From Patescibacteria group bacterium (GTDB lineage Bacteria; Patescibacteriota; Microgenomatia; 0-14-0-10-38-17), in contig JBMNNJ010000002.1 in NCBI GenBank assembly GCA_050953885.1, positions 124,140 to 188,139 of the forward strand: a stretch of DNA of 64,000 bases, in the 5' to 3' direction. The translations under genes and the position numbers were made by a program. Below, piece by piece: positions 21,262 through 47,084 of the stretch (its first letter is position 1; each line of letters opens with the position of its first letter). Below the pieces are notes generated by a model that did not search any database, was not told the origin of the DNA, and worked only from the letters and a program-made list of their open reading frames with translations.

Positions 21262-21292
21262 TCCTTAATTATAACACCGAAGGAAAAGAAAG

Positions 21293-22672: not shown

Positions 22673-22685
22673 ACTAGCGCCTTTG

Positions 22686-23134: not shown

Positions 23135-23141
23135 CTAAACA

Positions 23142-25666: not shown

Positions 25667-26035
25667 TTGTGCGGTGTCCAGGAGATGCGATACACTTCAT
25701 GAGGTTTGGGCATGAGGAACATGTAAGAAGAGTGTTAAAATTGGTGGGTGTTAATTTTGAGAGTGTAGTAAAGGGGGTGAAAAAGCATGAGTCCTGGAAT
25801 CCATGGAATCCGGATAGACGACAAGGAGTTAAAAGATTAATCCAGAAGCAGCCAGACAAACAGTGATTGAGTATCTAAAGACTATAATGGCCACAACATT
25901 GCTGATACCGCCAGGGTTTTTAGGGTCAACAGGACAGTGGTTTATGACATCTTGGCAAAAAGCAAAGAGGGCAATCTTAAAGACAGACCCAAGATACCAA
26001 AACACCAGCCAAGACAGAAGATAAAGTCATTCGCA
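25667..26035 (+). pseudogene. Truncated, degenerate second copy of the IS481-like element (5' ~370 bp only)
   Basis: Near-identical to 21293-21665 with point changes, an in-frame TAA, a small insertion and a 15-bp deletion. It ends ~30 bp from the tRNA-Ile 3' end. Confidence 0.7.
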
Positions 26036-26064
26036 ATCTCGTGTTTACCTGCCCAGCGCACGGG

Positions 26065-26136
26065 TGCGCCTGCTTGGATTCGAACCAAGGACGTCTACTT
26101 TATAAGAGTAGCGCTCTACCACTGAGCTACAGGCGC
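26065..26136 (-). tRNA. tRNA-Ile (anticodon TAT; UAU reads AUA)
   Basis: Manual cloverleaf. Acceptor GCGCCTG/CAGGCGC, D-arm GCTC-AGTGGTA-GAGC, anticodon stem CTACT/AGTAG with loop CTTATAA, T-arm CTTGG-TTCGAAT-CCAAG, discriminator A. Confidence 0.75.
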
Positions 26137-26223
26137 AACGAAAGTTAAAAGTTTTTTAGATCGGACTTCTATCTGCTCTTTATTATACTTTATACTCTAT
26201 ACTTTATACACTACACATTAGAT

Positions 26224-31469: not shown

Positions 31470-34400
31470 CTAACACTTGCTGTATCCGCAATAAAGGCAT
31501 TTATGGCAACCCTCCTCGTAAATTAAGGCTGCCCGGCCACAGGAAGGGCAAAGATCGCGCTTACCGCTCTTGGCAAAAAGCGGCGCCTGCTCGCCAACCG
31601 CCTCCACTACCTCTCCGTCTTTGCCTAAATATTCATTCAAAACTTGAGCAATACCATCGGCCAAAGAACGCACTTTTTTCTTCCCAAAACCAACGCTTTG
31701 GCTACCGCCAATCCCCTCCAGCTGGTCAATCACTTGCGCCAAAACTTCCTGGGGAGAAAAAGAAGAGGCGATGCGCAAATTAAGCGAAATCAGCCGACCA
31801 ATCGCCTCGGCATCGGCGGCAATATCCGAACCGGCCTTACCCACATTAACAAAAACCTCCAAAGGCTGATTATCGCCATTAGCGTTAATCGTCACAAAAG
31901 CGGTTCCCACCGGCGTCTCTACCCGATAAGTTACCCCCACCACCTTGCGCGGCCGTTCTTTAATTAAAGGCAAGGAAACAGTTTTCTTTTCCTCCTCTTT
32001 GCCAACACCGGCATATAAAACCTGTTCGCTCCGGCAACCATCGCGGAAAATGGTAATTCCCAAACAGCCAAGTTTGTAAGCCAAAAGATAAGCTTTTTCC
32101 ACTTCCTCCACTCCCACTTCATGACGTAAATTAACCGTTTTGGAAACGGCATTATCCACTCCTTTTTGAAAAGCCGCCTGCATCCTGATATGGCCCTCGG
32201 GAGAAATTTCGTGGGCGGTGGCAAAAACTTTCTTTAATTTTGGCGGCAAGCTCTTAATTTCTCCCAACACCCCCGCTTCCTCAACTTCTCTGATTTGTTT
32301 GGCGCTCAAGCGATATTTTTTTGCCGCCGCCAAGAAGTAGGGATTAACAAAGGTTAATTCCCGACCGTTAGCCTTATGTTTGAAAGCCAGGGCAAAGGCC
32401 GGCTCAATGCCCGAAGAGGCCCCGGCGATAATGCTAATCGAACCGGTAGGAGCAATGGTTGTTAAGGTAGCGTTGCGCAGGGCCGGCCCGTTTTTGTAAA
32501 TGCTTTTGGAAAAATTTGGAAAGGGGCCGCGCACTTTGGCCAAATTCTGGCTTTCAAGATGCGCCTCGTCATGAATAAAACGCATTAATTTTTCGGCCAA
32601 TTTTTGCGCCTCTCGCGACTCATAGGGAATTTCTAGAAAAAACAGGGCATCGGCCCAACCCATTACCCCCAAGCCGATGCGCCGGTTTAATAGCGTTGCC
32701 TGGCGCACCTCTTCTAAGGGATAAGGATTTGCCTCCACCACGTCATCCAAAAACCGCACCGCCAATCGTACCACACCTCGCAACGCCTCCCAATCAAAAT
32801 CATTCTTTTTCAAGAAATTAACCAAATTAATACTCCCTAAATTACATGACTCGTTAGGATAAAGAGGTTGCTCGCCACAATTATGGATTAAGACCCCATT
32901 GGCAAAAAAGGCATTAGCTCCGGGGACCGAAAGATCATAAACTTTCTCCTTTCGACCCGTTTTCTCTACCAAAAGAACTTTATCTTTAAAATCACGCTGG
33001 TAAACTCCCTGTTTTTTTATCGCTTCTATTTGTTCAGAGTGAACTTTATTCCAAAAGCCAACTTTTTTAATAAAGGTAATTAAGTTTTGCCGGCTAATAT
33101 TAATCTCGAAACAAACCCCATCAGTTAAATAATCCCTCTTTTCCCCTTTAATATTTTGATAAGTAAATGCCCTCCGGGGGGCACGAGAGCGATCATAAAT
33201 CTTGCTAAAAATCCCCAAGTTTAAGAGAAGCAATTGAACTTGCCTTAGCAGTTTTAGTGATTTAGAAGTAAGACGAATATATTTATTACCCTTTTCCTTT
33301 TGATCAGCAATCGTCCCATCCGCGGTAAAAAGACCCTGGAGAAAACCGACCACCGTCTCTTTAGGTGCTCCAAAAATGGCTGCCGGCACTTCTTTTTCGG
33401 CCGCTTTTACCGGCTTTACCCCTAATTTCCTAAAGAAATCTCTTAAATAAGCACTGTGATAAGAAAGATGCCAAACTCCATTTTCTCTTTTAACCAGCTT
33501 GACCTTTCTCCCATACCATTGGTTGATAATTCCCGCTATCTCCTCCATCAAAAGTTTATTTTTCTCTCCAAAAGTAAAGCCAACCCGACCATTATCTTTA
33601 TCATCCCTAAGCCAACCATCACCAACTAGCAACCCTAAAACCAAACCCAACTCATAAGACCATTTTTGGGGGAAATTAAATCTATAAACTCTCCCGTTAT
33701 CACCCTGAACCTCATTTTTAATCTCAAAGGGAAGCTCTTTATTTTCAGAAAAGCCGCCTTCTTGGGCTTGGAGATAAACTTGGTCCTCGCCGGCTTTCAG
33801 CTCGGAAAGTGCCACCCACCCTCGGGGGGTAAAAAATTGGTGGTCAGCAGTCGCCTTAACCACCACCCCTGATTCGGTAACCAGCTGCCAAACCTCTTTT
33901 TCCCCTCTTTCCCAAAAACCGTTCACCGCTTCGTAGGAAAAATCCTTTTTTCCAAGAACTCGATTGTCCACGAACACCGCCACTGGCTCTTTCTTCCGAA
34001 CTATCTGCCCAATGGAAAGCAAACCCCTATCGGTAGCGACTAAGGTTGAACCGACCAAACATGGGTTAGTTGACTCTATCGGTCCCATTTGGGGTACCGG
34101 ATTGGCCGAACCCGCATTCGCCCGATCAATAAAGAAAAGCCCGGGATCGCCCGTTTTCCAAGCCTCTTCAATAATTTTTCCAAAAACCTGCCGCGCCTTA
34201 AGGCTGCCTGCCTTTTTACCAGTATGGGGATCAATTAACGAGTAGTCTTTATCTTCCAAAACTGCTTTCATAAAGCGATCGGTAGCCGCCACGGAAAGGT
34301 TAAAATTGGTAATCCCCCCCTCTTCTTTGCAAACAATAAATTCCAAAATATCGGGATGATCCACCCGTAAAATGCCCATATTCGCCCCCCGGCGCCGGCC

Positions 34401-34922
34401 GCCCTGCTTAATCTCATTGGTGGCCGCATCAAAAACTCGCATAAAAGAAACCGGGCCGGAAGCGACGCCACGGGTAGATTGGACAATGCTCCCTTGGGCG
34501 CGAAGACGCGAAAAAGAAAAACCCGTCCCCCCGCCGGATTTATGAATTAAGGCCGCTTTTTTAACCGCATCGAAAATGCTTTCTAAAGAGTCGTCAACCG
34601 GCAAAACAAAACAAGCCGAATATTGCAAGTGGTCATTACCAACGCCGGCGTTCATTAAGGTTGGTGAGTTGGGAAGAAAATCATGGCGCACAAAAGCCTC
34701 GTAAAAAAGGCGGGTGATTTTTTCAATTTCTTTCTCACTTACCCCAAAATTTTTTTCTATTGAAGCCATTGTTTTGGCCACCCGAAAGCACATTTCGTCC
34801 GGCGTTTCGATCACCTTTCCCTTCTTGTCTTTTCTTAAATAACGCTCGGCCAAAACCTCTTTTGCCTGCTGGCTCCATTTTCCCTTTGGCCACGAAGATA
34901 GTCGCTGGCGATTTTTTGCCAT
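31470..34922 (-). CDS. nrdJ: Class II (adenosylcobalamin-dependent) ribonucleotide reductase NrdJ, interrupted by an intein
   Basis: N-extein FLPNSPTLMNAG…GGGTGFSFSRLR…PIESTNP, intein, then C-extein CGEQPLYPNESCNLGSINL. C-terminal Zn-ribbon CPSCG…CHKCLYCG. 1150 aa in total, with a 756-aa mature enzyme. Confidence 0.85.
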   Translation of the reverse strand: MAKNRQRLSSWPKGKWSQQAKEVLAERYLRKDKKGKVIETPDEMCFRVAKTMASIEKNFGVSEKEIEKITRLFYEAFVRHDFLPNSPTLMNAGVGNDHLQYSACFVLPVDDSLESIFDAVKKAALIHKSGGGTGFSFSRLRAQGSIVQSTRGVASGPVSFMRVFDAATNEIKQGGRRRGANMGILRVDHPDILEFIVCKEEGGITNFNLSVAATDRFMKAVLEDKDYSLIDPHTGKKAGSLKARQVFGKIIEEAWKTGDPGLFFIDRANAGSANPVPQMGPIESTNPCLVGSTLVATDRGLLSIGQIVRKKEPVAVFVDNRVLGKKDFSYEAVNGFWERGEKEVWQLVTESGVVVKATADHQFFTPRGWVALSELKAGEDQVYLQAQEGGFSENKELPFEIKNEVQGDNGRVYRFNFPQKWSYELGLVLGLLVGDGWLRDDKDNGRVGFTFGEKNKLLMEEIAGIINQWYGRKVKLVKRENGVWHLSYHSAYLRDFFRKLGVKPVKAAEKEVPAAIFGAPKETVVGFLQGLFTADGTIADQKEKGNKYIRLTSKSLKLLRQVQLLLLNLGIFSKIYDRSRAPRRAFTYQNIKGEKRDYLTDGVCFEINISRQNLITFIKKVGFWNKVHSEQIEAIKKQGVYQRDFKDKVLLVEKTGRKEKVYDLSVPGANAFFANGVLIHNCGEQPLYPNESCNLGSINLVNFLKKNDFDWEALRGVVRLAVRFLDDVVEANPYPLEEVRQATLLNRRIGLGVMGWADALFFLEIPYESREAQKLAEKLMRFIHDEAHLESQNLAKVRGPFPNFSKSIYKNGPALRNATLTTIAPTGSISIIAGASSGIEPAFALAFKHKANGRELTFVNPYFLAAAKKYRLSAKQIREVEEAGVLGEIKSLPPKLKKVFATAHEISPEGHIRMQAAFQKGVDNAVSKTVNLRHEVGVEEVEKAYLLAYKLGCLGITIFRDGCRSEQVLYAGVGKEEEKKTVSLPLIKERPRKVVGVTYRVETPVGTAFVTINANGDNQPLEVFVNVGKAGSDIAADAEAIGRLISLNLRIASSFSPQEVLAQVIDQLEGIGGSQSVGFGKKKVRSLADGIAQVLNEYLGKDGEVVEAVGEQAPLFAKSGKRDLCPSCGRAALIYEEGCHKCLYCGYSKC
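32880..34061 (-). mobile_element. Intein (394 aa) with LAGLIDADG homing-endonuclease domain, inserted at the NPC|GE active-site loop of NrdJ
   Basis: Block A CLVGSTLVAT (Cys1), block B TADHQF, two dodecapeptide motifs LGLVLGLLVGDGWL and VGFLQGLFTADGTI, C-terminal VLIHN, and a +1 Cys in the extein. Confidence 0.8.
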
Positions 34923-35247: not shown

Positions 35248-38200
35248 ATGCTTTTAAACCCCGAGCAAAAAGCGGCTATTACTTATAAAGGCGGACCGCT
35301 TTTGATCATCGCCGGCGCCGGCACGGGCAAAACCACGGTGATCACCGAAAGAATTAAGCATTTAATTCTTAAGGAAAAAGCGGCTACCGACCAAATTCTG
35401 GCCTTAACTTTTACCCAAAAGGCCGCCGGCGAAATGGAAGAGCGGGTGGACATCGCCCTTCCCTACGGCTACACCGATCTTTGGGTGATGACCTTTCATG
35501 CTTTCTGCGACCGGCTTTTGCGCAACGAGGCGGCTCAAATTGGCTTAAATCCTGACTATCGCTTAGCCAGCGAAGCCGAATCCCTAAAACTTCTTCAAGA
35601 TAATCTTTTTTCCCTCCCTCTAAATTATTTTCGCCCTCTTGGCAATCCCACCCGTTTTTTGGACGGTCTTTTCCGTCATTTTTCCCGGCTTAAAGACGAA
35701 GATGTAAGCCCCGAAGAATATCTTCTCTGGGCTAAAAATTTAAAAACCGAAAAAGAGGAAAAGGAAAAATATCAGGAGCTGGCTAAGGTTTACCAAAAAT
35801 ATGAAGAAATTAAAGTTAAAAAGGGGCTGATGGACTTTGGTGACCTAATTACCCAAGTGTTAACTCTTTTTAGAAAGCGGCCCAATGTTTTGCGCCAATA
35901 CCGGCAAAAGTTTGCCCACATTTTAATCGACGAGTTTCAGGATACCAACATTGCCCAGTACCAGCTTTTAAAGCTTTTGGCCCCGCCCAAAACCAACCCC
36001 GATTTAACCATCGTCGCCGATGATTCCCAATGCCTGCCAAAAGAAACAAAAATTACCCTCCTTAAAGAAGAAAAAAGAATTGACCAAATTAAGCCGGGAG
36101 AAAAAATATTAACCGCGGTCGGCAAGGGATATACCTCTGTCAGCAAAGTCAGGCGCGTTTTTAAAAGAAAAGCGCGGGTGCGTCTGCTCACCTTTGAACT
36201 TGAAAGCGGCCAAAAAATCACCGTTACCGATAATCATAAAATGTTTTGCTATCTTTCTTCAGTAGAAAAAGATGATCGTTATTATCTCTATTTAATGGCC
36301 CAAAAGAAATACGGCTGGCGCTTGGGAATAACCCGAGATTTGTCAACACGGTTGAAAATAGAACCCCCTGCTGACAAAATCATTGGCATCGGCTCTTACG
36401 CCAGCGAAGAAGAGGCGCGCTATTATGAAGCCCTATATGCGGCCAAATATGGTTTGCCGACCGTTCCTTTTAATTCCCGCCCCCATCAGGCCATTAGCGG
36501 GGCTTGGCGGGATAAACTCTTTGCCGCCATTAACACCCGGGAAAAAGCGCAAAAGCTGGCCGACGATCTTCACTTAGAATTAGATTCTCCTCATTGCCTT
36601 GCCGATGGCGTGGTTCGCGGCGAAACAGAAAGAGTTAAGATTAATTTGGAAATGTGTCATCGCTGTTACCCAAGTAAGTATGACCGGGAAGGATTCTTGC
36701 CAAATCCCCAAGTGCTCCACCTGGTCAGGATGGAAACATCATCCGCAAAAATGATTGCCAAATTGAAAAAAGCCGGTTTTAAGCTTCACCCGACAAAAAA
36801 GGGAGAAAAATATCAATTAAGCACCGCCGATTTAAAAAAAGCGTGGGAGATAGCGTTAAAATTAGCAGAATTAACCGGAGGAGTTTTAGATAAAAAGTTC
36901 GCCGTCGGTAAAGTTCAACGCCAAACCAGAGCGGCCAGAATAATGCCTGCCAGCCATATTTTAGTAGGTAATTATCTGCCGGTTTTACAAAATAAGGAAA
37001 TTGTTTATAAAAAGGTAATTAAACGGGAAGAAAAAGTGGCTACCAAAACTGTTTACGACTTAGAGGTGGAGCGGACCCATAACTTTATTGCCAACGGGGT
37101 GGTGGTTCACAACTCAATTTATAAGTTCCGCGGCGCCGCCGTTTCCAACATTCTCCAGTTTAAAAAAGACTATCCTCAAGCAAAAATGGTCAGCCTGATT
37201 AAAAATTATCGGTCTTATCAGGAAATTTTAGACGCCTCCTACCGGCTGATTAAAAATAACGACCCCGACACCTTAGAAGCCCGGCTTAAAATAAGCAAAA
37301 ACTTAAAAAGTCAGCGGGGGGAGGGGGGGGAGGTAGAATTTTGGCATTTTAACCGCTTCGATGAGGAGGCCGAAGCGGTGGCACGAAAAATTAAAGAAAT
37401 GGTTAAAGAAGGCAAATATGCTTATGGCGATTTTGCCATTCTCCTGCGCACCAACCGCGCCGCCCAAAATTTCATCCAAAGCCTGCGCTACCAGCAAATT
37501 CCCTACCAGTTTTTGGGTCCGGGCCTTCTTTTCCATCAACCGGAAATTAAAGACTTAATTGCCTATCTTTCTTTCCTGACAAACCCCAACGATAACCTTC
37601 CCCTTTATCGACTGCTCCGCCTTCCTCCCTTTGGCCTTTCCGGCCGCGACTTGGCCGTGCTTAACGGTTTTGCCAAAAATGCCGGCCTTTCTCTTTTTGA
37701 AGCCATCAGCATCATCGCCAACCCGGCAGAAAAACCGGCTAATTTGCCCCTGCCGTTCTTAAGCCTTCAGGGAAGAAAAACCTTAGAAAAAATCACCCGT
37801 CTTTTAAATCGCCATCTGGAATTAACCAAAAAAGAAAAAAGCGCCGGCCAAATGCTTTATTATTTCTTACAAGATTCCGGACTTTTGGCAAAAATGGGCG
37901 AGGTGAAAACGGTAGAGGGGGAACGTCAGATAAAAAATGTTGCCCGTTTTTTTGAGAAACTGCGCCAATATGAGCTTGATCATGAGGACAGCTCTCCGGA
38001 AGCGGTTTTATCATGGATTAATCTTTCTCTTTCCTTGGGCGAAAGCCCTTTAGCCTCCGAAGTTGACTGGGGCGAGGAAAACCGCGTTAACCTCCTCACC
38101 GTTCATTCGGCCAAGGGCTTGGAATTTCCGGTGGTTTTTTTGGTTAATTTGGCGGCCAATCGTTTCCCCCTTCCCCAGCGCCGGGAACAAATTCCCATTC

Positions 38201-39222
38201 CCGAGGCCTTAATTAAAGAAATCCTCCCCCAGGGGAATTATCACGAACAGGAAGAACGACGGCTTTTTTATGTGGGGATGACGCGGGCGGCCGACTGCCT
38301 TTTCTTAACCGCCGCCGATTATTACGGCGAGAAAAGAAAAAGCCGAATTTCTCCCTTTGTTTTTGAAGCTTTAGGCGAAAAAAACCTTACCAATAAAATT
38401 TCCTCGCCCCTTTCTTTAGCCGAACAGCTTTCAATTTTTAAGTTCGAGGAGACAACGGAAAAAGAGGAAAAGGAGGAAAAGGAGGAAAAATTTATCCTCC
38501 CACCCAAAATTTCTTTTTCCCAACTTGAGACCTTTGAACATTGCCCCGCCCAATTTTACTACGCCTACCTTAAACGCCTGCCCACCCCGCCCACCGGCAA
38601 TCAAAATTTTGGCAGCACGATTCACAAAACCCTTCTTAACTTTTACCAAGCGGTTTTGAATAACCAAGAGGTTAGCCTTGACCTGCTTTTAAGTCTTTAC
38701 GAGAAAAACTGGCTTCCCTTTGGCTTTAAAAGCCGCGCCTGGGAAAAACGGCTTAAAAAAGAAGGCGAGCAAATGTTGAGGCGTTTTTTTAAAGAAGGTT
38801 TTAGTCCGGCCAATAAACCGCTTTTTCTGGAAAAACGTTTTGTTTTTCCCCTTAAGAATTGGCGGCTTTCGGGAGTGATTGACCGGGTGGATAAAACAAG
38901 CAAGGGGTACGAGATTATTGATTACAAAACCGGCAAGGTAATGGCCGATAAGGAAATTGAAAAAAGCCTCCAGATGACCGTTTACGCCTTGGCCGCCACC
39001 GATCCGGGCATTTTGGGCGCCAAACCGGAAGAAATTACCGCCACTTTTTACTTTTTATCCGAAGGGGTGAAGAAAAGTGTCCAGAAAAGCGCCGCCCAGC
39101 TTGAGAAAGGCAGGGAAGAATTGCTTAAACGTCTTGAGGCGTTACAGAATGATAAATTTTTGCCAAAACCGGGCTTTTGGTGCGACTTTTGCCCCTATCG
39201 CGCCCTTTGCGATGCGTGGTAA
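35248..39222 (+). CDS. UvrD/PcrA-like superfamily 1 helicase fused to a C-terminal PD-(D/E)XK (RecB/Cas4-like, Cys-cluster) nuclease domain, interrupted by an intein
   Basis: Walker A GAGTGKTT, DEFQDTN, and motif III split as VADDSQ|intein|SIYKFRGA. C-terminal nuclease region IDYKTGK… and CDFCPYRALC. Confidence 0.8.
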   Translation: MLLNPEQKAAITYKGGPLLIIAGAGTGKTTVITERIKHLILKEKAATDQILALTFTQKAAGEMEERVDIALPYGYTDLWVMTFHAFCDRLLRNEAAQIGLNPDYRLASEAESLKLLQDNLFSLPLNYFRPLGNPTRFLDGLFRHFSRLKDEDVSPEEYLLWAKNLKTEKEEKEKYQELAKVYQKYEEIKVKKGLMDFGDLITQVLTLFRKRPNVLRQYRQKFAHILIDEFQDTNIAQYQLLKLLAPPKTNPDLTIVADDSQCLPKETKITLLKEEKRIDQIKPGEKILTAVGKGYTSVSKVRRVFKRKARVRLLTFELESGQKITVTDNHKMFCYLSSVEKDDRYYLYLMAQKKYGWRLGITRDLSTRLKIEPPADKIIGIGSYASEEEARYYEALYAAKYGLPTVPFNSRPHQAISGAWRDKLFAAINTREKAQKLADDLHLELDSPHCLADGVVRGETERVKINLEMCHRCYPSKYDREGFLPNPQVLHLVRMETSSAKMIAKLKKAGFKLHPTKKGEKYQLSTADLKKAWEIALKLAELTGGVLDKKFAVGKVQRQTRAARIMPASHILVGNYLPVLQNKEIVYKKVIKREEKVATKTVYDLEVERTHNFIANGVVVHNSIYKFRGAAVSNILQFKKDYPQAKMVSLIKNYRSYQEILDASYRLIKNNDPDTLEARLKISKNLKSQRGEGGEVEFWHFNRFDEEAEAVARKIKEMVKEGKYAYGDFAILLRTNRAAQNFIQSLRYQQIPYQFLGPGLLFHQPEIKDLIAYLSFLTNPNDNLPLYRLLRLPPFGLSGRDLAVLNGFAKNAGLSLFEAISIIANPAEKPANLPLPFLSLQGRKTLEKITRLLNRHLELTKKEKSAGQMLYYFLQDSGLLAKMGEVKTVEGERQIKNVARFFEKLRQYELDHEDSSPEAVLSWINLSLSLGESPLASEVDWGEENRVNLLTVHSAKGLEFPVVFLVNLAANRFPLPQRREQIPIPEALIKEILPQGNYHEQEERRLFYVGMTRAADCLFLTAADYYGEKRKSRISPFVFEALGEKNLTNKISSPLSLAEQLSIFKFEETTEKEEKEEKEEKFILPPKISFSQLETFEHCPAQFYYAYLKRLPTPPTGNQNFGSTIHKTLLNFYQAVLNNQEVSLDLLLSLYEKNWLPFGFKSRAWEKRLKKEGEQMLRRFFKEGFSPANKPLFLEKRFVFPLKNWRLSGVIDRVDKTSKGYEIIDYKTGKVMADKEIEKSLQMTVYALAATDPGILGAKPEEITATFYFLSEGVKKSVQKSAAQLEKGREELLKRLEALQNDKFLPKPGFWCDFCPYRALCDAW
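36031..37113 (+). mobile_element. Intein (361 aa) inserted in helicase motif III (GDDxQ|SIYxFRGA)
   Basis: Block A CLPKETKITLL (Cys1), block B TVTDNH, C-terminal YDLEVERTHNFIANGVVVHN, and a +1 Ser. The central region has no clear LAGLIDADG motif; it contains a CHRC pair. Confidence 0.75.
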
Positions 39223-39502: not shown

Positions 39503-42500
39503 TTAAGGAATCACCTCCTGCCAAAGGTATGGCTTCTCGCGCAAAACTTTCGGGGCGGTGAAAAGATAGCTTGGGTCAAAGGTAAAAATCTCGGCGGGGG
39601 TAGTGGCGTTGGCACCGCTACGGAAATTTCTCTTCAGGAAAGCTCCTCCCCTAGGAACAAAAATCCCCTGACCATTAAACTGGCTATCGGTGGCCCCATT
39701 ACTTTCCACCGTCAGGTTTCCATCGGCAAAGTAGACTCCCTGGACTTTGGTAACACTTGGAGCAATGGTAATATTGCCGCTGACAATAAAGGCTAAAAAT
39801 CCGCCCGAGGTAACGCTGATGTTTTTGTTAATATTGAGGTTGTCTTCAACAAAAATAACCAGCTTTTGATTGGCACTAATAGAGAAGTTATCTTCATCAA
39901 GAGAAACGGCCATATCACCTGTCCCGTAGGGAGGATAATAATAAAGGCCGGCACTAGCGCCAACCAAAGCGGTTTTATTAATTGTACCTGATTTAATCAC
40001 CTTCACTCCGCTGTTGAAGCTTTCTTCTTTATTATCTTTAATCGCCAAGTCAACCAGATGGTCCAGTTTGTCGTAGGAGTAATCATTAAGAAGGGCTTGA
40101 GCAGAGCCGTCAATACTCCAGGCGTTGCCTTGAGTCTCCGTCGCTGTCCCTTCGCCAAAATCACGACTTGTTTCCGAGGGGGAGGAGATTAAACCAGAAT
40201 AGCCATTTAGGGCAAGAGAGAAATATTCCTTGCAGGTTGGACTCTCTACGCAAGCCTCAGGAATAGGAGAGGAAATGCCGCCACCGCCATGAACATCACC
40301 GCCTTGAGTTTGCCACCAAGGGTCGGGATGGGTAATATCAAAATACCAAACTGAAGAATCGGCGGTTAAAGCGCCATTGGAGGCTCTCACTCCCCAACAA
40401 TATCTTGTATCCCAAGAAAGATTTTCCAAAAATTTTTCAACCGTGCTACCGGAATCACTATCAGCACCGCCATCAAAGGTGAAGACAAAGTCTCGGCCGC
40501 CGACCAAGCTGCCAAAGCTAGGGCAAGGATTACCTTTACCAACATTTTTAACATAAAGAGAATACTGGTTATTACTCACGTCGCAATTGAACCCCCAACT
40601 GCTTAATTCGTACCAGATAAGATTAATTTTGTTCCTTTTAAGGGAAGTTCCGCTACTTGGGGAAATAAGAGAAGGAGCATCAGGGGCTTTATTAATACAA
40701 AATCTCCAAATGTCTGAATCTCTGGAAAGCGCCCCATTCGTTGCCACCACTTTCCAATAATAAGTGTTGCCCGCCTCAACGGTAACTGCTTGCTGTGTTG
40801 TACCTGAACCAACCGCGGCAACAACATCGCTTTCACTAAAGCTACTGCTTCCTTTCTTAAGATAGACCTTGTATTGATTGTTATTGACGTTACAATTTAC
40901 ACCCCAACTGCCTATCGGATTCCAATCTAAAGTAATCCTTGTGCTTGAAGTATGATAGTCATAGACAGGGGAGTAAAGGCTGGGTTTATCGGGGGCAACA
41001 TTTTCGCAGGATATAGAGAGACACTTTTTATCGTTTATCGCACAAGGTTGCCAACCGCTGCCGCAGTCATTGCTACTACAACCAGCTCCAGGACAACTAT
41101 CGCAAAACGCACTGCTGGTATAGTTGCAAAAGGGGTTGCCGGAACAGGCGCCGGGGCTATGAGGAATATCACAATGGAGATAATATTCTCCTACCGGCCA
41201 ATTAGAAGTAAGATTAATACTGTCATTGCAAAAACCACTGCCATTATTAGTGCAACGAGCCAGCTCATAATAACATTTTCCTCCGGAACAATATTTATTC
41301 AAATAGTCTGTCCCCTGGACCACTCCGGTCACCTCCCCACCGTCTCTTTTTTCTAACCATAGTCTTGTAGTTTCTCCGCTACCTAAACCGCTGCCGAAAA
41401 AGCTAACCTGAAATGGATCTGCCTGTTTTTTTATTTCCGAGGGGGCGTTGACAGAACATGTTTTAGAAGAACACTCCCAAAGGCGTAAATTATCAAAAGA
41501 TGCCCCCCAAGGCGTCCCCCACCAACCATAATAAGAAGTCCCTTTGCTTGCCAAATCCACCTTAAGAGAAGTATCGTCATAGGTATACCACAGGCATCTT
41601 TTAGTTTCCCAAGGGCCGTTGGGCTTAATACTCCCCCAACTCCCTCGATAATTATCAGTTAACTTATACCAAGCAGAGGACATGCCCCCTGATGATAACT
41701 TTATGTTTGGCCTCTGATAAGTCCTCTCCCCGCTAACAGACCCTCTTGCCCCCCAAGAAGAAATTTGTATTAAATAGTTAGTATTAGACTTTAAACCGGT
41801 AATTGTATTCGAAATATTATATTCAGGAGATGCATTACCTTCCTTGTAATTTGTAGAGCATAGTCCGGTGCTCTCCCCATTAGGGCAGCAAGACCCTCCT
41901 CCACAATGCTCCGGGTCCCAGGGACAACAGTCCCCACCTTGACCAATCACTCCATAAGGGTTACCAGCCCACATATTGTAGTAATTCTCAAAACGAGGAT
42001 TATACGCAGAAAGATTTACCTCCACTGGGGTTGTCCCCGCAGGGCAAGAGGTAGTCAAGCACGGCGGCGGTTGAGTTGGAATAGGACAAGTCCCCAATGT
42101 AATTTCGTCAGAAACCCCGCAAATGGGGTCGCTGCAAATATTACCCTCTTCCTCATTAGGAATATGGCCACCATAAGAAACTTCTAAAACATAACGGCCT
42201 TGAGGATAAGGACCTATGGGCATATCTTTTGCCCTACTATCAGGCGCCGCTTGCATATTAGTAATATTCCAAAAGCAAGATGACCAATTTTTACAACTCT
42301 CGCTACCAACGCTACAAACAACATAACCATAAGGAATACCGGAGTTCTCGGGTGAGCTAACTATTTTAACGTCTAATTGAGAGTAAGCGCAACCGCAATC
42401 AACAGAACCATGAATTGTTCTGGGGTCTTGTTTTACCTTAACTTCAACATAAGCATTACTAGTACAATCATTATACGTCCCCTCTACATTCATCTGCGCT

Positions 42501-43453
42501 GGGCACGCTTGCGGGGTGCAGCAATAAACTGTGTTAGGATCAGAACAGTAGCAATCTCTTTCTGCGGGGATTACTCTCCCCCCCACGCTGGAACAATCAT
42601 TTGCGTTTGGGGCGCACCATCTCCATTCACCTGATCTACAGTTTTCACAACTTTCTTGTGGAGTTGGTGTTACTGGCGTCGGGCCGCCGGGCGTCGGCGT
42701 CGGGCCGGCGGTGGGGGCAATAGTTTTAGTACAGGTAGCGGTATGTTCGGAGGTACAATTATTTGTCAAGGCCGTACTGGCAACCGAACAGCTATAAGTT
42801 GACCCAGCTGCCCCGGAAACGGTAAAACTGTAAGAAGGAGGATAATTGCAATTGAAAAGAAAAGAGTCGTTTATGCCCCCCCTATATACATCAACCCTTG
42901 TTTGATTTCCCGGAGTAAGAGTGGTCCCTGTGTAGAGAGATTTTCCGTTGATGTAGCTATTAATGGAAATAGTATCACTAGTGTTATTCTTTAGCGTTAA
43001 ATAAATCCTCGACAGGGGATATCCTGTATCACTCTTAGAAATACTGCCATTAGTAACCGTGCTTGTTACCGAATTTACAGGGCATTTGTTTGCTAAAGTA
43101 GCATACCAATAAATTGTTTTTGACTCACCCCTTGAAAGGGTATAGTCATATCTTAATCTCCCCCCATCCCACCTCCAATCACTGGGAGAAACACTAGAAT
43201 AATTCTCTGTTTGGACAGTAGCATACAAAATGCCTGACCTCACTACTTCATCATTGTTGGCAATAACTGTTTTCCACGCTATCCCTGCGCCGGGTTGAAG
43301 ATAGGGATGAGGATAACCACCCGAGTCATTAACAGTATACTGAAGAGAAATTTCCGCCCTCGCTGGTATGATTAATGGGTTTTTCTTAACTGGCAAAAAA
43401 CATAAAAACAAAACTAACAGTTTTAGGATGAATAAAAAAAATTTTTTAGCCAT
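39503..43453 (-). CDS. Very large (1316 aa) secreted Cys-rich cell-surface protein with duplicated FN3-like domains (putative adhesin)
   Basis: Signal peptide MAKKFFLFILKLLVLFLCF, a TPTPGGPTPVTPTP linker, dense Cys clusters, two paralogous ~100-aa modules (…NNQYKVYLKKG…YYWKVVATNGAL… and …NNQYSLYVKNVG…RYCWGVRASNGAL…), and a Gly/Asn-rich C-terminal region. Confidence 0.65.
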   Translation of the reverse strand: MAKKFFLFILKLLVLFLCFLPVKKNPLIIPARAEISLQYTVNDSGGYPHPYLQPGAGIAWKTVIANNDEVVRSGILYATVQTENYSSVSPSDWRWDGGRLRYDYTLSRGESKTIYWYATLANKCPVNSVTSTVTNGSISKSDTGYPLSRIYLTLKNNTSDTISINSYINGKSLYTGTTLTPGNQTRVDVYRGGINDSFLFNCNYPPSYSFTVSGAAGSTYSCSVASTALTNNCTSEHTATCTKTIAPTAGPTPTPGGPTPVTPTPQESCENCRSGEWRWCAPNANDCSSVGGRVIPAERDCYCSDPNTVYCCTPQACPAQMNVEGTYNDCTSNAYVEVKVKQDPRTIHGSVDCGCAYSQLDVKIVSSPENSGIPYGYVVCSVGSESCKNWSSCFWNITNMQAAPDSRAKDMPIGPYPQGRYVLEVSYGGHIPNEEEGNICSDPICGVSDEITLGTCPIPTQPPPCLTTSCPAGTTPVEVNLSAYNPRFENYYNMWAGNPYGVIGQGGDCCPWDPEHCGGGSCCPNGESTGLCSTNYKEGNASPEYNISNTITGLKSNTNYLIQISSWGARGSVSGERTYQRPNIKLSSGGMSSAWYKLTDNYRGSWGSIKPNGPWETKRCLWYTYDDTSLKVDLASKGTSYYGWWGTPWGASFDNLRLWECSSKTCSVNAPSEIKKQADPFQVSFFGSGLGSGETTRLWLEKRDGGEVTGVVQGTDYLNKYCSGGKCYYELARCTNNGSGFCNDSINLTSNWPVGEYYLHCDIPHSPGACSGNPFCNYTSSAFCDSCPGAGCSSNDCGSGWQPCAINDKKCLSISCENVAPDKPSLYSPVYDYHTSSTRITLDWNPIGSWGVNCNVNNNQYKVYLKKGSSSFSESDVVAAVGSGTTQQAVTVEAGNTYYWKVVATNGALSRDSDIWRFCINKAPDAPSLISPSSGTSLKRNKINLIWYELSSWGFNCDVSNNQYSLYVKNVGKGNPCPSFGSLVGGRDFVFTFDGGADSDSGSTVEKFLENLSWDTRYCWGVRASNGALTADSSVWYFDITHPDPWWQTQGGDVHGGGGISSPIPEACVESPTCKEYFSLALNGYSGLISSPSETSRDFGEGTATETQGNAWSIDGSAQALLNDYSYDKLDHLVDLAIKDNKEESFNSGVKVIKSGTINKTALVGASAGLYYYPPYGTGDMAVSLDEDNFSISANQKLVIFVEDNLNINKNISVTSGGFLAFIVSGNITIAPSVTKVQGVYFADGNLTVESNGATDSQFNGQGIFVPRGGAFLKRNFRSGANATTPAEIFTFDPSYLFTAPKVLREKPYLWQEVIP

Positions 43454-43469
43454 TTTAGCTATCTATTAA

Positions 43470-43991
43470 CTATTCTACCTCCCAATCCTTCTCATCAAAA
43501 AAAGGATTAGGACGGGCGAGTTCTCTGATTTGCGCTAAAACTTCAAGGATTTTTTGATTACGATTTTCGGGACTATCACCACTCGCATAATAAACCCCCA
43601 CCAACCAACCTACCGTAATTCTATAGTGTTCGTATTGGTCTAAATTTTCAGGAAACTTATTAGGATCAAGCTCATTTGCTTTTTCAAGATTCTTTAAAAT
43701 ATCTTGAGCTATCTCTGAATTTTCTCCTCCATAGGGTTCATAAATCTTAATAATATCGGCATAGAGTTGTTGCTCTGAAGAAAGAGACGGGGTTGTTGTC
43801 TGCTGGGAAGGCTCGGAGGTAATTATTTGATTCTCTTTTTTTAACTTAAACCAATAAATTCCTTCCCCGATTAGCGCTAAAATCACCAAACCTAACGCCA
43901 AATAAAGAAATATTGGCTTTTTTGCTTTTTCGGGAACTGGAGGAAAAGAAAGGTGGCTTAGCTGTTTTTCTTCCGGCGATAAATTTTCCAT
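43470..43991 (-). CDS. Single-pass membrane protein carrying the shared ~100-aa C-terminal domain X
   Basis: 173 aa with a TM (IFLYLALGLVILALIGEGIYWF). The C-terminus QQLYADIIKIYEPYGG…FFDEKDWEVE is identical to the C-terminus of the 44827 gene. Confidence 0.6.
   Translation of the reverse strand: MENLSPEEKQLSHLSFPPVPEKAKKPIFLYLALGLVILALIGEGIYWFKLKKENQIITSEPSQQTTTPSLSSEQQLYADIIKIYEPYGGENSEIAQDILKNLEKANELDPNKFPENLDQYEHYRITVGWLVGVYYASGDSPENRNQKILEVLAQIRELARPNPFFDEKDWEVE
43473..43777. repeat. 305-bp segment 100% identical to 44833-45137 (encodes domain X)
   Basis: Compared by eye across the whole length; no mismatches seen. Confidence 0.8.
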
Positions 43992-44066
43992 CTATTTAGA
44001 TAGTAAACAACCGGAAAACTTTTGTCAAGCCCGCCAAAAGAAGGCAAGATGAAGTAATAAAACGGG

Positions 44067-44747
44067 TTATTTTGACTTACAACAAATATCTTCTATCTCC
44101 TTACAAGCCTGAATAGAAGAAATAATCATCTCGCCGTCAGCTTTAGCGCAATCATTAATGTTGGTACACCAAGTTCCCTCCGGACATCCCCCCTCGGTAA
44201 GTTTTCCCAAAACTGCTTTAGCCGCATTCTGGCTATCGCAATCAGCAATTAATACGCTACACCATTCTCCGGACGAAGGATTACCGCCCGTAACAAATAC
44301 TCGCCATGCCCCTTCGCCTTCTTTCGCCCAATTGGCATAAAAAACTTCGGCCCGGGCACTACACGAATGAGGCCCTAATTCATTTTCTGGAAAAACCTGA
44401 TAAGTTTTGTATTTACGCACCTCCTGACATCCTTCTACCGAAGATAAAGGGATCTTCCAAACTAAATAAGAACCGGCTTCCCCCTCTTTTCCTTCTTGGG
44501 AAAAATTAGGGGCAGCAATTTCACCTTCCTGGTTATCCGCCAATAAGCGCGCTCCTAAAGTATCCTTGCTTAAATTCATTCTCACCACTTCGTTCGTTGC
44601 TTCGCTCCTTCTTTCTGCCAGAAAAGCTCCGGAAGCACTCCTGTCTTGACTTTCAGCACGTAAGAGCGGCGTTACCGCCGCACTCACAACTAGCAAACTT
44701 GTTCTTTTTAGAAAATCTCTTCGTGTTATCTGTTTTTCTTTATTCAT
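44067..44747 (-). CDS. Tat-signal secreted Cys-rich protein
   Basis: Twin-arginine motif TRRDFLKRTSLLVVSAAV and multiple Cys in the C-terminal half. Confidence 0.55.
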   Translation of the reverse strand: MNKEKQITRRDFLKRTSLLVVSAAVTPLLRAESQDRSASGAFLAERRSEATNEVVRMNLSKDTLGARLLADNQEGEIAAPNFSQEGKEGEAGSYLVWKIPLSSVEGCQEVRKYKTYQVFPENELGPHSCSARAEVFYANWAKEGEGAWRVFVTGGNPSSGEWCSVLIADCDSQNAAKAVLGKLTEGGCPEGTWCTNINDCAKADGEMIISSIQACKEIEDICCKSK

Positions 44748-44826
44748 ATAACACCTATTTTAAAATTATCTAGGTTCTAAGCAATGTATTCTTATATATA
44801 TCACAATCAAAGTTATAAGTCAAATT

Positions 44827-46381
44827 TTACTTTTCTACCTCCCAATCCTTCTCATCAAAAAAAGGATTAGGACGGGCGAGTTCTCTGATTTGCGCTAAAA
44901 CTTCAAGGATTTTTTGATTACGATTTTCGGGACTATCACCACTCGCATAATAAACCCCCACCAACCAACCTACCGTAATTCTATAGTGTTCGTATTGGTC
45001 TAAATTTTCAGGAAACTTATTAGGATCAAGCTCATTTGCTTTTTCAAGATTCTTTAAAATATCTTGAGCTATCTCTGAATTTTCTCCTCCATAGGGTTCA
45101 TAAATCTTAATAATATCGGCATAGAGTTGTTGCTCTTCCGAAGTTAATTCCGGCGTTGGCGTTGGTTCCGCCTCTGCCTCCTTCCATCCCCACTCTCCCT
45201 TCTCCTCGTCATAGGAAACTTGGGCAAAGTCAACCAGCTCGCCTTGGTCGTTTTGCTCTTGAAGAAGGAAGCTGATCTTGCCTTCTTCTTCCTGTTGGAC
45301 AAGATTCCAAATGGCGGGCATCTGGTCGGGATAGGGAACAACGGGGTTTTTAATCAGCTTGCCGTTTATCTGGTCCACAAAGGCAAGGCCAGTGGCTTGC
45401 CTTAGATCTTTGATTAAGTCTTCTCCTTCTATCCGGTTTAGGCCCACCTTGGTTTGCTCTTTGGTTTGGGGATCAACAAGGGTAATCTCGTTTGCTTGAG
45501 GGTCATACTGATAACCATTAGCTTCTAAGAGGTTTTTAAGAGTCAGGGCATTCTTGTTATCAGAGTCGGCCGGAAGGTGGGTGGGGAGAACGGCTAAGTA
45601 GTGGCGGGGGACGCCTTCCTCGGAGGAACGAAGATAGTCAGTAAAGGAAACTAAGGCGAAGTTAAGCTCGCCTGCGGCAACTTCCTTGTCAACAGTAATC
45701 TCCTCGGCCGACTTGGGTTGGTTAAGCAAGCCGACTACCGTCATCTGGGTTTGGGGGCGAAGGAGAAGGCCTTGGGGGGAGACCCGCTCCGGATATTCTT
45801 GCTCCTTTTGCTCTCCTTCTGAAGGAATCTTTTCTAAAGTTAACCTTGGCAGTGATAAGTCTTTTAACTGGGGAAAGATTATCTCTTCTCCTTGCTTTCC
45901 AGGGGTAAAAACGCCTTCTTTACCCTGATAAGTACCTAAGGAAATTAAATATTTTAGTGAAGAAATAGGATCTTCGGATAATTTAGCAAAATCAACTTCT
46001 TCTCCCCACGATGAGGAAACATAATCCTGGCCAAATTGGACCAGCGACACTTCCTCCTGACCGTTGGTAACAATCTCCTCGCCGCCAATACCGGCAAAGG
46101 CGTTCCTTAAGTAGTCGGCAGTGATCGTCGTGCCGGCAATACTTATTATCTCCGGGGCAGGAGAGGGTTCGGGAGAAAGAATAAGGGTTGGCTCTTTTGT
46201 TTTGACAGGGGTTTGGGTAGGAGGGACCTGTCTCGGTTGGAGAAGGGGCTTTGGTTGGTTCTTCCCCAGAGGGTTTTTCTTTAACGCCGCAGGAGGAAAG
46301 CAGGGCCGAGGCGCCCAAAGCGGTGATGCCCTTTAAAAACTGCCTTCTGGTGATTCCCTTTGGTTCCTTTTCTTCAACCAT
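44827..46381 (-). CDS. Tat/lipobox-signal exported protein with Pro-rich linker and C-terminal domain X; apparent frameshift near 46215-46260 (possible pseudogene or sequencing indel)
   Basis: The N-terminal frame (46381→) reads MVEEKEPKGITRRQFLKGITALGASALLSSCG…, then degenerates into an Arg/Cys-rich frame. The frame of the 407-aa ORF is open upstream of its GTG start and reads a sensible Pro-rich linker (…PPTQTPVKTKEPTLILSPEPSPAPEIISIAGTT…). Confidence 0.5.
44833..45137. repeat. Second copy of the 305-bp identical segment (see 43473-43777)
   Basis: Identical sequence. Confidence 0.8.
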
Positions 46382-46424
46382 AAGCTTTTATTTAAGCCTC
46401 AAGGCAAGAATAGCATAGAGAAAG

Positions 46425-47084
46425 CTATAAGTCAAGAGAGCGGTTAAACATTTCTCTTGACAATTTAATTATTTGATTGTCTTTGTTGTGCAACCAGAAA
46501 GAAAGATTTGTTCCTGAACGAAAACCTAATCCTCCTTCACCCGCTTTAGCCAATATCGCACCTTCGGCAACGCTCTGCCCTTCTTGAACTAAAATCTCAC
46601 CAACAATCACATAACTAACCCAAAACTTCCCGTCTTCGCTTTCAAGATGAATCTCGTTAAAAGGCAAATCATCAGGGAATGGTTTCTGATCAAGTAAAAC
46701 TTGGGTAATCTGGCCGTTAAAAACTGCCCTTATTGGTTCATCTTTAGGCAGAAAAAAAGATAAAACTTGAGAAGACTCTTTATCAATAATTGCTTTTTCT
46801 AAATATTCTTTTCTAACTGGCGAGGCTAAAGTTAGCCCTTCTGGCAATTCCACCATATCCGGCTCCACGGCTACTATCGGCGGAGGAGGTATCTTTGTAG
46901 GAGCGGGAGTAATTAACACCGAAGTCTCCAACGCCTTCTCTCCTTTTCTAAGCTTAAAGTAATAAACCCCCTCGATAAGCAAAACTAAAATCACTACACC
47001 TAAAACAATAAAAAGCCATTTGGAGTTTTTTAGTTGCTTAGACGATAAAACTGATGTTTGGCCCAAGGCTGGTAGATTTTCCAT
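46425..47084 (-). CDS. Single-pass membrane protein with C-terminal degenerate LytM (M23-like) domain
   Basis: TM LFIVLGVVILVLLIEGVYYF. The C-terminus YVIVGEILVQEGQSVAEGAILAKAGEGG…NLSFWLH follows the M23 beta-core pattern but lacks the full HxxxD/HxH set. Confidence 0.5.
   Translation of the reverse strand: MENLPALGQTSVLSSKQLKNSKWLFIVLGVVILVLLIEGVYYFKLRKGEKALETSVLITPAPTKIPPPPIVAVEPDMVELPEGLTLASPVRKEYLEKAIIDKESSQVLSFFLPKDEPIRAVFNGQITQVLLDQKPFPDDLPFNEIHLESEDGKFWVSYVIVGEILVQEGQSVAEGAILAKAGEGGLGFRSGTNLSFWLHNKDNQIIKLSREMFNRSLDL

What the first reader, a model, noticed from the sequence alone, without database searches (positions are those of the whole stretch)
43473..45137. 305 bp of 100% nucleotide identity shared by two otherwise different genes
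43473-43777 and 44833-45137 are identical at every position I compared. They encode the same C-terminal domain at the 3' ends of a 173-aa TM protein and a ~500-aa Tat-lipoprotein. The upstream parts of the two genes are unrelated.

Perfect identity over 305 bp in a genome where paralogs are otherwise diverged implies very recent duplication or ongoing gene conversion. This is possibly domain shuffling among surface proteins, as in antigenic variation. Alternatively it is an assembly artefact.
Basis: seen in the sequence. Interest (0 to 1): 0.55.

Follow-up and report, generated by a model that had tools for sequence, protein, structure and literature searches.

The report
Gene conversion keeps shared domain identical
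Two neighbouring cell-envelope genes of an uncultivated Patescibacteria bacterium end in the same 101-codon helical domain, and comparison with relatives shows that gene conversion repeatedly copies one onto the other; this process is well known, here found in a new, tiny domain family.

Summary
The repeat is real. They are direct repeats 1360 nt apart on the minus strand. Each encodes the last 101 sense codons ("domain X") of a gene: a 173-aa membrane-anchored protein and a Tat-signal lipoprotein. The lipoprotein gene is frameshifted in this window but is an intact 519 aa in a sister strain.

It is not an assembly artefact. Independent assemblies from other samples carry both copies, and many short contigs break inside the repeat.

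It is not a recent duplication. Seven further lineages have X only 41-88% identical to the window's X at protein level, with synonymous sites saturated. Yet each lineage's own two copies are 97-100% identical at nucleotide level. The homogenised tract starts at different positions in different lineages. This is concerted evolution by intragenomic gene conversion, limited to one domain.

X is a confident four-helix bundle with no Pfam, PDB-sequence or specific fold match. The family has 19 clusters among 1.84 billion representatives. It occurs on several different carrier proteins. One near-identical strain replaces the whole X-bearing 2.5-kb segment with another cassette, so module shuffling is real. 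A cassette-type antigenic variation system is not supported.

The mechanism is known; the domain and host lineage are new. Interest is moderate to low.

The parts
43473..43776 (-). Repeat copy 1: the last 101 sense codons (domain X) of the 173-aa membrane-anchored protein.
   Evidence: Exact 304-nt identity with 44833-45136. tblastn gives 100% over 101 aa.
44833..45136 (-). Repeat copy 2: domain X at the C-terminus of the Tat-signal lipoprotein, followed by one extra Lys codon and the stop.
   Evidence: The same arrangement is seen in the independent contigs L001/L002.
43470..43991 (-). TM-X gene (173 aa): N-terminal single hydrophobic anchor (IFLYLALGLVILALIGEGIYWF), a Ser/Thr/Pro linker, then domain X.
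   Evidence: ORF list. The identical protein is found on 5 other contigs. Orthologs of 157-178 aa occur in other lineages.
44827..46381 (-). Lipoprotein-X gene: twin-arginine signal (TRRQFLKG), lipobox (LLSSC), Pro/Thr linker, ~300-aa core of unknown fold, linker, then domain X. It is interrupted in this window by a +1 frameshift.
   Evidence: Three-frame translation. Intact 519 aa in L001/L002 and 524 aa in L008. The homolog P0026 carries a precomputed PF10518 TAT_signal hit.
46230..46230 (-). Single extra base (C on the coding strand) that frameshifts the lipoprotein gene in this assembly.
   Evidence: Alignment with L018 and L001. Whether it is a real mutation or an assembly error cannot be decided without reads.
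44067..44747 (-). Intervening gene between the two repeats: a 226-aa Tat-signal, Cys-rich protein. It is part of the 1360-nt repeat unit.
   Evidence: no Pfam hit. Orthologs lie at the same place in L008, L017 and L010. L012 has a different gene there, and L015/L016 have none.
42717..45178 (.). Strain-variable segment: X of the lipoprotein, the 226-aa gene, TM-X and the first ~245 codons of the 1316-aa protein. In contig L018 it is replaced as a block by an unrelated 2.1-kb cassette without X.
   Evidence: blastn of L018 against the window gives 98.99% over 51381-45178 and 99.9% over 42717-40825, with nothing between. There is no X in L018.
39503..43453 (-). Downstream 1316-aa secreted Cys-rich protein. 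It starts 16 nt after TM-X in every lineage that reaches this far. Its N-terminal part belongs to the swappable segment.
   Evidence: (weak DUF7305 hit only).
46425..47084 (-). Paralogous anchor carrier: a 219-aa protein with the same type of N-terminal anchor (MENLP...LIEGVYYFKL) but a peptidase M23 C-terminal module instead of X.
   Evidence: Pfam M23 hit at 7e-07. Its anchor is 45% identical to the window's TM-X anchor and 68% identical to the L008 TM-X anchor.

Best explanation
The two 304-nt copies are the products of repeated intragenomic gene conversion, that is, non-reciprocal homologous recombination. It acts between two old, closely spaced, same-orientation paralogous gene segments. 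Both segments encode the C-terminal four-helix domain X of two otherwise unrelated envelope proteins: a membrane-anchored protein and a Tat-signal lipoprotein.

Shown: the duplication predates the divergence of at least eight lineages. In each lineage the two copies have been homogenised after that lineage split, at synonymous as well as non-synonymous sites. The tract is bounded at the 3' end by the stop codon, where homology ends. Its 5' boundary varies among lineages: the start of X in the window and L008, about 6 codons into X in L016, about 10-15 codons in L012, and about 22 codons in L010.

Inferred: the mechanism is ordinary RecA-type recombination, favoured by the short distance between the copies (0.57-1.6 kb). 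Once the copies are identical, the process sustains itself.

Inferred with lower confidence: in the window, L006 and L008 lineages the lipoprotein copy was the donor. Their TM-X copies carry the 'lipoprotein-type' first helix (EQQL..DII.I[YF]EPYGGE). The unconverted TM copies of L010 and L017 have a different first helix.

The consequence is that both proteins always display the same version of X on the outer face of the membrane. The biochemical role of X is unknown. My best guess is a shared protein-binding or docking module.
For: (1) The repeat is exact over 304 nt, coincides with the coding end of both genes, and has unrelated flanks.

(2) Independent assemblies carry both copies. L001 and L002 come from two other JGI samples and have 134 and 88 mismatches to the window elsewhere in the locus. 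L003-L005 support single copies.

(3) Identity between the two copies within one genome, in other lineages:
- L008: 325/326 nt.
- L016 (NCBI GCA_964472215.1): 311/311.
- L012/L013: 278/286.
- L006/L007: 129/132, cut by the contig end.
- L010: 113/114, cut by the contig end.
- L015: 99/99 and L017: 112/112, both cut by the contig end.

(4) Between lineages the nucleotide identity of X is 47-71% and synonymous differences are saturated (pS 0.68-0.93). Within genomes pS is 0-0.05.

(5) In L010 the first 18 aligned codons of X are only 52% identical between the paralogs (pS 0.70), while the next 37 codons are 99% identical. This shows an old duplication that was partly converted.

(6) The N-terminal parts are orthologous and syntenic across lineages.

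(7) Eight short contigs start or end inside a repeat copy (L004, L005, L006, L007/L009, L010, L014, L015, L017). This is the expected behaviour of a true repeat longer than the assembler's k-mer.

(8) The same pattern, restricted to 3' segments or to one domain, is documented for H. pylori homA/homB and babA/babB (PMC2795765) and for mtrA-1/mtrA-2 (PMC4632066).
Against: There is no direct observation of a recombination event and no reads were available.

De Bruijn assemblers can pop bubbles between nearly identical repeats. The 100% values could therefore be slight overestimates of, say, 98-99%. The 97.2% pair in L012 and the single mismatches kept in L008, L006 and L010 show that differences are not always erased.

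Four of the seven comparison lineages give only partial second copies, because their contigs end in the repeat.

The lipoprotein gene is frameshifted in this window. If that is real, one of the two copies here sits in a pseudogene and the 'two functional partners' picture does not hold for this strain.
Confidence: 0.85

Rival explanations
1. Independent, very recent duplication or transfer of X onto a second gene in each lineage, with no long-term conversion.
For: X is demonstrably mobile over evolutionary time. It is found on a 594-type lipoprotein (P0007), on a short lipoprotein with a long linker (P0006), and as tandem pairs (P0016, P0020). Some lipoprotein-core orthologs carry other C-terminal modules.
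Against: It would require the same two recipient genes, in the same order, to gain X independently in eight lineages. In L010, L012 and L016 the start of X is present in both paralogs but diverged, with L010 at pS 0.70. This shows that both copies are old.
Confidence: 0.05
2. Assembly artefact: a collapsed, duplicated or chimeric repeat in a metagenome-assembled genome.
For: The window comes from a MAG. The lipoprotein gene has a frameshift in the window. One related contig, L018, is visibly error-prone. Identity could be inflated by bubble popping.
Against: The two-copy structure recurs in contigs from at least seven other samples or assemblers (JGI, ENA, NCBI and Logan). These include lineages with quite different sequences. 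For a direct repeat with unique flanks and a unique spacer, the A-R-B-R-C path is the only linear solution.
Confidence: 0.02
3. Identity is maintained by purifying selection on the protein alone, without DNA exchange.
For: X is under strong purifying selection between lineages: pN 0.06 versus pS 0.69 for the window versus L006.
Against: Synonymous sites are also identical within genomes (pS 0 in the window and L008) while they are saturated between genomes. Selection on the protein cannot do that.
Confidence: 0.01
4. A programmed diversification system: either a diversity-generating retroelement (template/variable repeat pair) or an expression-site/silent-cassette antigenic variation system.
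For: The repeat sits at the 3' end of surface-protein genes, as DGR variable repeats do. CPR genomes are known to carry DGRs (own knowledge). The locus is strain-variable.
Against: No reverse transcriptase was found among the ORFs of at least 120 aa scanned between 18.2 and 59.5 kb of the window. The eight mismatches in L012 are T/C, C/T, A/T and G/A, so they are not adenine-specific. Both copies are coding, in frame and inside complete genes. There are only two copies and no cassette array. X was identical in the six assemblies of this species that carry it (the window and L001-L005).
Confidence: 0.02

Closest known systems
Concerted evolution of the 3' segments of Helicobacter pylori outer-membrane paralogs (babA/babB, homA/homB)
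   Same: Two surface-protein paralogs in one genome share a 3' segment that groups by strain rather than by gene. This is attributed to intragenomic recombination or gene conversion, while the other segments diverge (PMC2795765, which cites Pride & Blaser 2002).
   Different: The H. pylori paralogs are homologous along their whole length and lie at distant loci. Here the two genes are unrelated outside the 101-codon domain and are 0.6-1.6 kb apart. The pattern is seen across deeply diverged lineages, not across strains of one species.
mtrA-1/mtrA-2 in methanogen mtr operons (long-lasting, domain-restricted gene conversion)
   Same: Two genes in one operon share one domain that is homogenised by gene conversion over very long times. 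The remainder, a membrane anchor gained by domain shuffling, differs (PMC4632066 abstract). In logic this is the closest match.
   Different: That case involves a cytoplasmic or membrane enzyme subunit of known function in archaea. Here it is an uncharacterised extracytoplasmic four-helix module in Patescibacteria. The shared part here is C-terminal and ends exactly at the stop codon.
tufA/tufB and rRNA operon homogenisation in bacteria (reviewed by Santoyo & Romero 2005; cited; details from own knowledge)
   Same: RecA-dependent conversion between duplicated genes keeps paralogs nearly identical within a genome.
   Different: Those cases involve whole-gene duplicates of essential, highly expressed genes. 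This one is a single domain shared by different proteins.
Cassette-based antigenic variation (Neisseria pilE/pilS, Borrelia vlsE, Anaplasma msp2; own knowledge)
   Same: Gene conversion acts on surface-protein genes.
   Different: Those systems use many silent, promoterless donor cassettes to diversify one expression site. Here there are two complete genes and the outcome is homogenisation, not diversification.

Membership tests
Concerted evolution by intragenomic gene conversion | Paralogs within a genome are more similar to each other than to their orthologs in other genomes. | tested here: met
   Within genomes: 94.7-100% nucleotide identity over the aligned X. Between genomes: 47-71% for the four genomes with complete pairs. 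Four more lineages with partial pairs give 98-100%.
Concerted evolution by intragenomic gene conversion | Homogenisation includes synonymous sites, so it reflects DNA exchange and not protein-level selection. | tested here: met
   pS is 0 (window, L008) to 0.05 (L010 tract) within genomes, against 0.68-0.93 between genomes.
Concerted evolution by intragenomic gene conversion | Mosaic structure: a discrete converted tract lies next to homologous but diverged sequence, and tract ends differ among lineages. | tested here: met
   In L010 the first 18 codons are 52% identical and the following 37 codons 99%. L012's tract is 286 nt, with 5 of its 8 mismatches at the 5' edge. L016's tract starts about 6 codons into X.
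Concerted evolution by intragenomic gene conversion | Direct demonstration of non-reciprocal transfer and dependence on recombination functions. | not testable with these tools
   This needs reads, time series or genetics. The organism is uncultivated.
Cassette-type antigenic variation system | An array of silent, truncated donor cassettes plus one expression site. | tested here: not met
   There are exactly two X copies in the 64-kb window and two in every locus that spans both positions. Each lies in a complete gene with its own start and export signal.
Cassette-type antigenic variation system | Sequence variation of the expressed copy within a population. | tested here: inconclusive
   X is identical in the six assemblies of this species that carry it (the window and L001-L005). 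One strain (L018) lacks X altogether through a block replacement. No read-level data were available.
Diversity-generating retroelement (TR/VR pair) | A nearby reverse transcriptase, and adenine-specific TR/VR mismatches. | tested here: not met
   No RT was found among the ORFs scanned between 18.2 and 59.5 kb. The L012 mismatches are not A-specific.
Any described protein domain family for X (Pfam / PDB) | A significant sequence or fold match. | tested here: not met
Tat-exported bacterial lipoprotein (carrier of copy 2) | A twin-arginine motif S/T-R-R-x-F-L-K followed by a hydrophobic stretch and a lipobox Cys. | tested here: met
   The sequence shows KGITRRQFLKGITALGASALLSSC. The homolog P0026 has a precomputed PF10518 hit. 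Actual export was not tested.

The most novel reading that the evidence does not exclude
X may be a self- or partner-specific docking module, so that the identity of the two copies is functionally required rather than a neutral by-product. For example, X on the membrane anchor and X on the lipoprotein could pair homotypically. Alternatively, both could bind the N-terminal region of the giant secreted protein encoded immediately downstream. That N-terminal region is replaced together with both X copies in strain L018. Under this reading, gene conversion would let a fast-changing recognition module change in lockstep on two carriers. Block replacement of the whole segment would switch specificity between strains of an episymbiotic bacterium.
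Probability: 0.12. Interest if true: 0.6.

Novelty: new member of a known kind. Interest (0 to 1): 0.35.

Why it matters
This is a clean, multi-lineage example of domain-restricted concerted evolution in Patescibacteria (CPR). These organisms have tiny genomes and few paralogs, and their surface biology is almost entirely unknown.

It defines a new, very narrow extracytoplasmic four-helix module. It also shows that one envelope-protein locus is built from exchangeable parts: anchors, signal peptides and C-terminal modules. These parts are shuffled, homogenised and replaced as blocks between near-identical strains.

There is also a practical lesson. Real 300-nt repeats like this one fragment metagenome assemblies at exactly this kind of locus, so such loci are under-sampled in MAGs.

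The finding does not reveal a new mechanism.

Tried and rejected
- A scan of GTDB species-representative genomes for X found no relative, so the lineage is not represented there.
- Pfam scans of the 173-, 226-, 407- and 594-aa proteins found nothing.
- Pfam and PDB-sequence searches with the X alignment found nothing significant.
- A Foldseek search of PDB with the X model gave no hit with E below 1.
- The afdb50 library was unavailable.
- I tested whether the two C-terminal modules of the alternative cassette in L018 are related to each other, as the two X copies are. BLASTP gave E 0.21, which is not significant. Only the TM protein is weakly M23-like. A general 'both carriers always share a module' rule is therefore not supported.
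- The DGR idea was rejected: no RT and no adenine-specific mismatches.
- An early note placed the frameshift in a CCC run. Alignment with L018 corrected this to the extra C at 46230.
- Literature searches found no report of this locus or domain in CPR/Patescibacteria.
Full report
**Observation.** The repeat finder reports one long direct repeat in the region. A base-by-base comparison shows exact identity over window 43473-43776 and 44833-45136, which is 304 nt at an offset of 1360. Both copies are on the minus strand. They form the last 101 sense codons of ORF 43470-43991 (173 aa) and ORF 44827-46050. Identity ends one codon before the stop: TAG in copy 1, and AAG-TAA in copy 2. Nothing beyond either end is similar. 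tblastn finds exactly two copies of the encoded domain ("X") in the 64 kb. The N-terminal parts of the two proteins match only themselves. The only other repeat of comparable length in the window is a ~347-nt fragment of a transposase gene.

**The two genes.** The 173-aa protein has an N-terminal hydrophobic anchor, a Ser/Thr/Pro linker and then X. The second gene begins with a twin-arginine signal and lipobox (KGITRRQFLKGITALGASALLSSC). In this window it is split by a one-base insertion at 46230 into a 129-aa ORF and a 407-aa ORF. Sister-strain contigs encode an intact 519-aa protein. Neither protein, nor the 226-aa Tat-signal Cys-rich protein encoded between the repeats, matches any Pfam family.

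The surrounding genes are also envelope-related:
- a polysaccharide deacetylase with an SH3 domain;
- a 594-aa Tat lipoprotein;
- a 219-aa protein with the same kind of anchor but an M23 peptidase module;
- a 1316-aa secreted Cys-rich protein that starts 16 nt after the 173-aa gene.

A public source names the organism 'Patescibacteria group bacterium'.

**Not an artefact.** The exact 173-aa protein is encoded on five further contigs from JGI and Logan samples. L001 and L002, from two different samples, span the whole locus. They differ from the window by 134 and 88 mismatches elsewhere in the locus and carry both copies in the same arrangement. Eight short contigs from various lineages begin or end inside a repeat copy. 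A genuine repeat longer than the assembler's k-mer produces exactly this behaviour. I could not examine reads. Bubble popping could therefore have turned roughly 99% identity into 100% in some assemblies. Several assemblies do preserve differences between the copies.

**Gene conversion, not recent duplication.** Searching for X found orthologous ~157-178-aa anchor-X proteins and ~520-553-aa lipoprotein-X proteins in other lineages. I fetched their contigs. Wherever a contig reaches both positions, the lineage's own two copies are nearly identical:

| Locus | Identity between own two copies | Note |
|---|---|---|
| L008 | 325/326 nt | complete pair |
| L016 | 311/311 nt | complete pair |
| L012/L013 | 278/286 nt | complete pair |
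| L006/L007 | 129/132 nt | cut by contig end |
| L010 | 113/114 nt | cut by contig end |
| L015 | 99/99 nt | cut by contig end |
| L017 | 112/112 nt | cut by contig end |

Between lineages X is only 41-88% identical at protein level and 47-71% at nucleotide level. The proportion of synonymous differences is 0.68-0.93, which is saturated. Within genomes it is 0-0.05. Paralogs therefore group by genome, at silent sites too. This is the defining signature of concerted evolution by gene conversion.

The duplication itself is old. In L010 the first 18 aligned codons of X are present in both genes but are only 52% identical (pS 0.70). The following 37 codons are 99% identical. L012 and L016 also have tracts that start inside X. 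The 3' limit is always the stop codon, where homology ends.

Helix 1 of the unconverted anchor copies (L010, L017) is of a different type from that of the lipoprotein copies. The window, L006 and L008 anchor copies carry the lipoprotein type. This suggests that conversion ran from the lipoprotein gene to the anchor gene in those lineages; this step is inference.

**What X is.** With an 18-sequence alignment, AlphaFold2 gives a confident model (pLDDT 95) of an up-down helical bundle. Neither sequence nor fold searches link it to a described family. A profile search of 1.84 billion representative proteins finds only 19 members, so the family is very narrow. X evolves under purifying selection: pN 0.06 against pS 0.69 for the window versus L006. 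Its function is unknown. From the export signals of both carriers I infer that it is displayed on the outer face of the membrane. I suspect a binding or docking role.

**Module shuffling.** X also occurs in other contexts:
- at the end of a homolog of the 594-aa lipoprotein (P0007);
- on a short lipoprotein with a long Pro/Thr linker (P0006);
- as tandem pairs behind a Tat signal (P0016, P0020).

Conversely, orthologs of the lipoprotein core carry unrelated C-terminal modules (P0026, P0028, P0029).

The most striking case is contig L018. It is 98.99% and 99.9% identical to the window on the two flanks, but it replaces window 45178-42717 with an unrelated 2.1-kb cassette. The replaced segment holds X of the lipoprotein, the 226-aa gene, the anchor-X gene and the first ~245 codons of the giant protein. 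In L018 the lipoprotein core runs in frame into a different ~227-aa module. It is followed by another anchor protein that is weakly M23-like and by a different N-terminus for the giant protein. There is no X anywhere in L018. The left breakpoint lies just after the conserved end of the lipoprotein core, about 40 nt from the repeat.

The strain represented by L001/L002 differs from the window almost only in two hot spots, 45424-46600 and 37500-38250. This again indicates recombination imports at this locus.

**What is not supported.** The evidence does not fit a cassette-type antigenic variation system. There are two complete genes, no silent array, and homogenisation rather than diversification. 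It does not fit a DGR either: no reverse transcriptase was found among the ORFs scanned between 18.2 and 59.5 kb, and mismatches are not adenine-specific. A test of whether the two C-terminal modules of the alternative L018 cassette are related to each other was negative.

**Comparison with known cases.** The pattern matches the 3'-segment concerted evolution of H. pylori babA/babB and homA/homB (PMC2795765). It matches even more closely the domain-restricted, long-lasting conversion between mtrA-1 and mtrA-2 within one operon (PMC4632066). I found no report of this domain or locus in CPR bacteria.

**Verdict.** This is a new member of a known kind: a real and well-supported case of ordinary gene conversion in a new domain family and an under-studied phylum. 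The most novel reading still open is that identity of the two X copies is functionally required. X might be a docking module that changes in lockstep on two carriers and is swapped together with the N-terminus of the downstream giant protein. I give that reading about 12%.

Noticed in passing
window 46230 (gene 44827-46381, minus strand): A one-base insertion frameshifts the Tat-lipoprotein gene in this assembly. It separates the signal peptide and lipobox (129-aa ORF) from the rest (407-aa ORF). The gene is intact in L001/L002, and L018 is in frame at this site. It could be a real pseudogenisation or an assembly error.
   Followed up: partly
window 42717-45178 versus L018 6205-8309: A strain that is ~99% identical over the flanks replaces this 2.46-kb segment, which holds both X copies and the N-terminus of the 1316-aa protein, with an unrelated 2.1-kb cassette. 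The locus is therefore strain-variable through block replacement.
   Followed up: yes
window 45424-46600 and 37500-38250: Differences between the window and sister-strain contigs L001/L002 are concentrated in two hot spots, with up to 89 per 250 nt. Elsewhere there are at most 2 per 250 nt. These look like recombination imports into the N-terminal two-thirds of the lipoprotein gene and into the 3' part of the helicase-nuclease gene.
   Followed up: partly
window 46425-47084 (219-aa M23 protein) versus L008 6220-6750: The N-terminal anchor of the window's M23 protein is 68% identical to the anchor of the L008 anchor-X protein, including a 20-aa identical stretch (KQLKNSKWLFIVLGVVILVL). It is only 45% identical to the window's own anchor-X protein. 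L008 lacks the M23 gene at this site. In L018 a 56-nt exact repeat covers the 5' ends of its two anchor genes. Anchors therefore seem to be exchanged too.
   Followed up: partly
L012 5506-7167 (553-aa lipoprotein, P0013): Upstream of its complete X this lipoprotein carries a relic of an anchor-type first helix (EEEEKLYTDITSLSPSIVGGE) followed by a linker. This may be a footprint of an unequal recombination.
   Followed up: no
window 31470-34922 (-) and 35248-39222 (+): Two adjacent genes contain inteins: the ribonucleotide reductase large subunit (intein with a LAGLIDADG endonuclease) and a UvrD/AddA-like helicase with a PD-(D/E)XK nuclease domain (Intein_splicing/Hint hits).
   Followed up: no
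window 21292-21638 and 25664-26010: A ~347-nt direct repeat (96-100% identical, spacing ~4372). It covers the upstream region and 5' end of an rve-family transposase gene (21415-22524). It brackets two tRNA-Met genes, a tyrosine recombinase (23526-24407) and a Ham1-like gene, and it ends just before tRNA-Ile. It may be a partial IS duplication or an integrated element.
   Followed up: partly
window 6728, 20171, 29408, 31375, 55449, 57737 (+); 53393, 57396 (inverted): An intergenic repeat family of ~50-100 nt with 7-nt periodicity (CATTCGCTCATTCGCGTCCATTCGTTTCTCATTCGCGTTAATTCGCG), with at least 8 copies in both orientations. A second, A/T-rich 7-nt-periodic family (TTTTGAATTTTGACTTTTGAA) occurs at 7875, 9157, 22607, 28686, 28771, 52240, 61029 and 62385. 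The function of both is unknown.
   Followed up: no
window 26062-26137 (-): A tRNA-Ile with anticodon UAU (tat) lies next to two CAU-anticodon tRNAs (22685-22759, 23065-23135). This is an uncommon way for bacteria to decode AUA.
   Followed up: no
L015 and L016: In these two lineages the lipoprotein-X gene lies directly upstream of the anchor-X gene, with a repeat spacing of ~575 nt. The window, L008 and L012 have one Tat-signal gene between them. That gene differs in L012, so the spacer gene is itself variable.
   Followed up: partly
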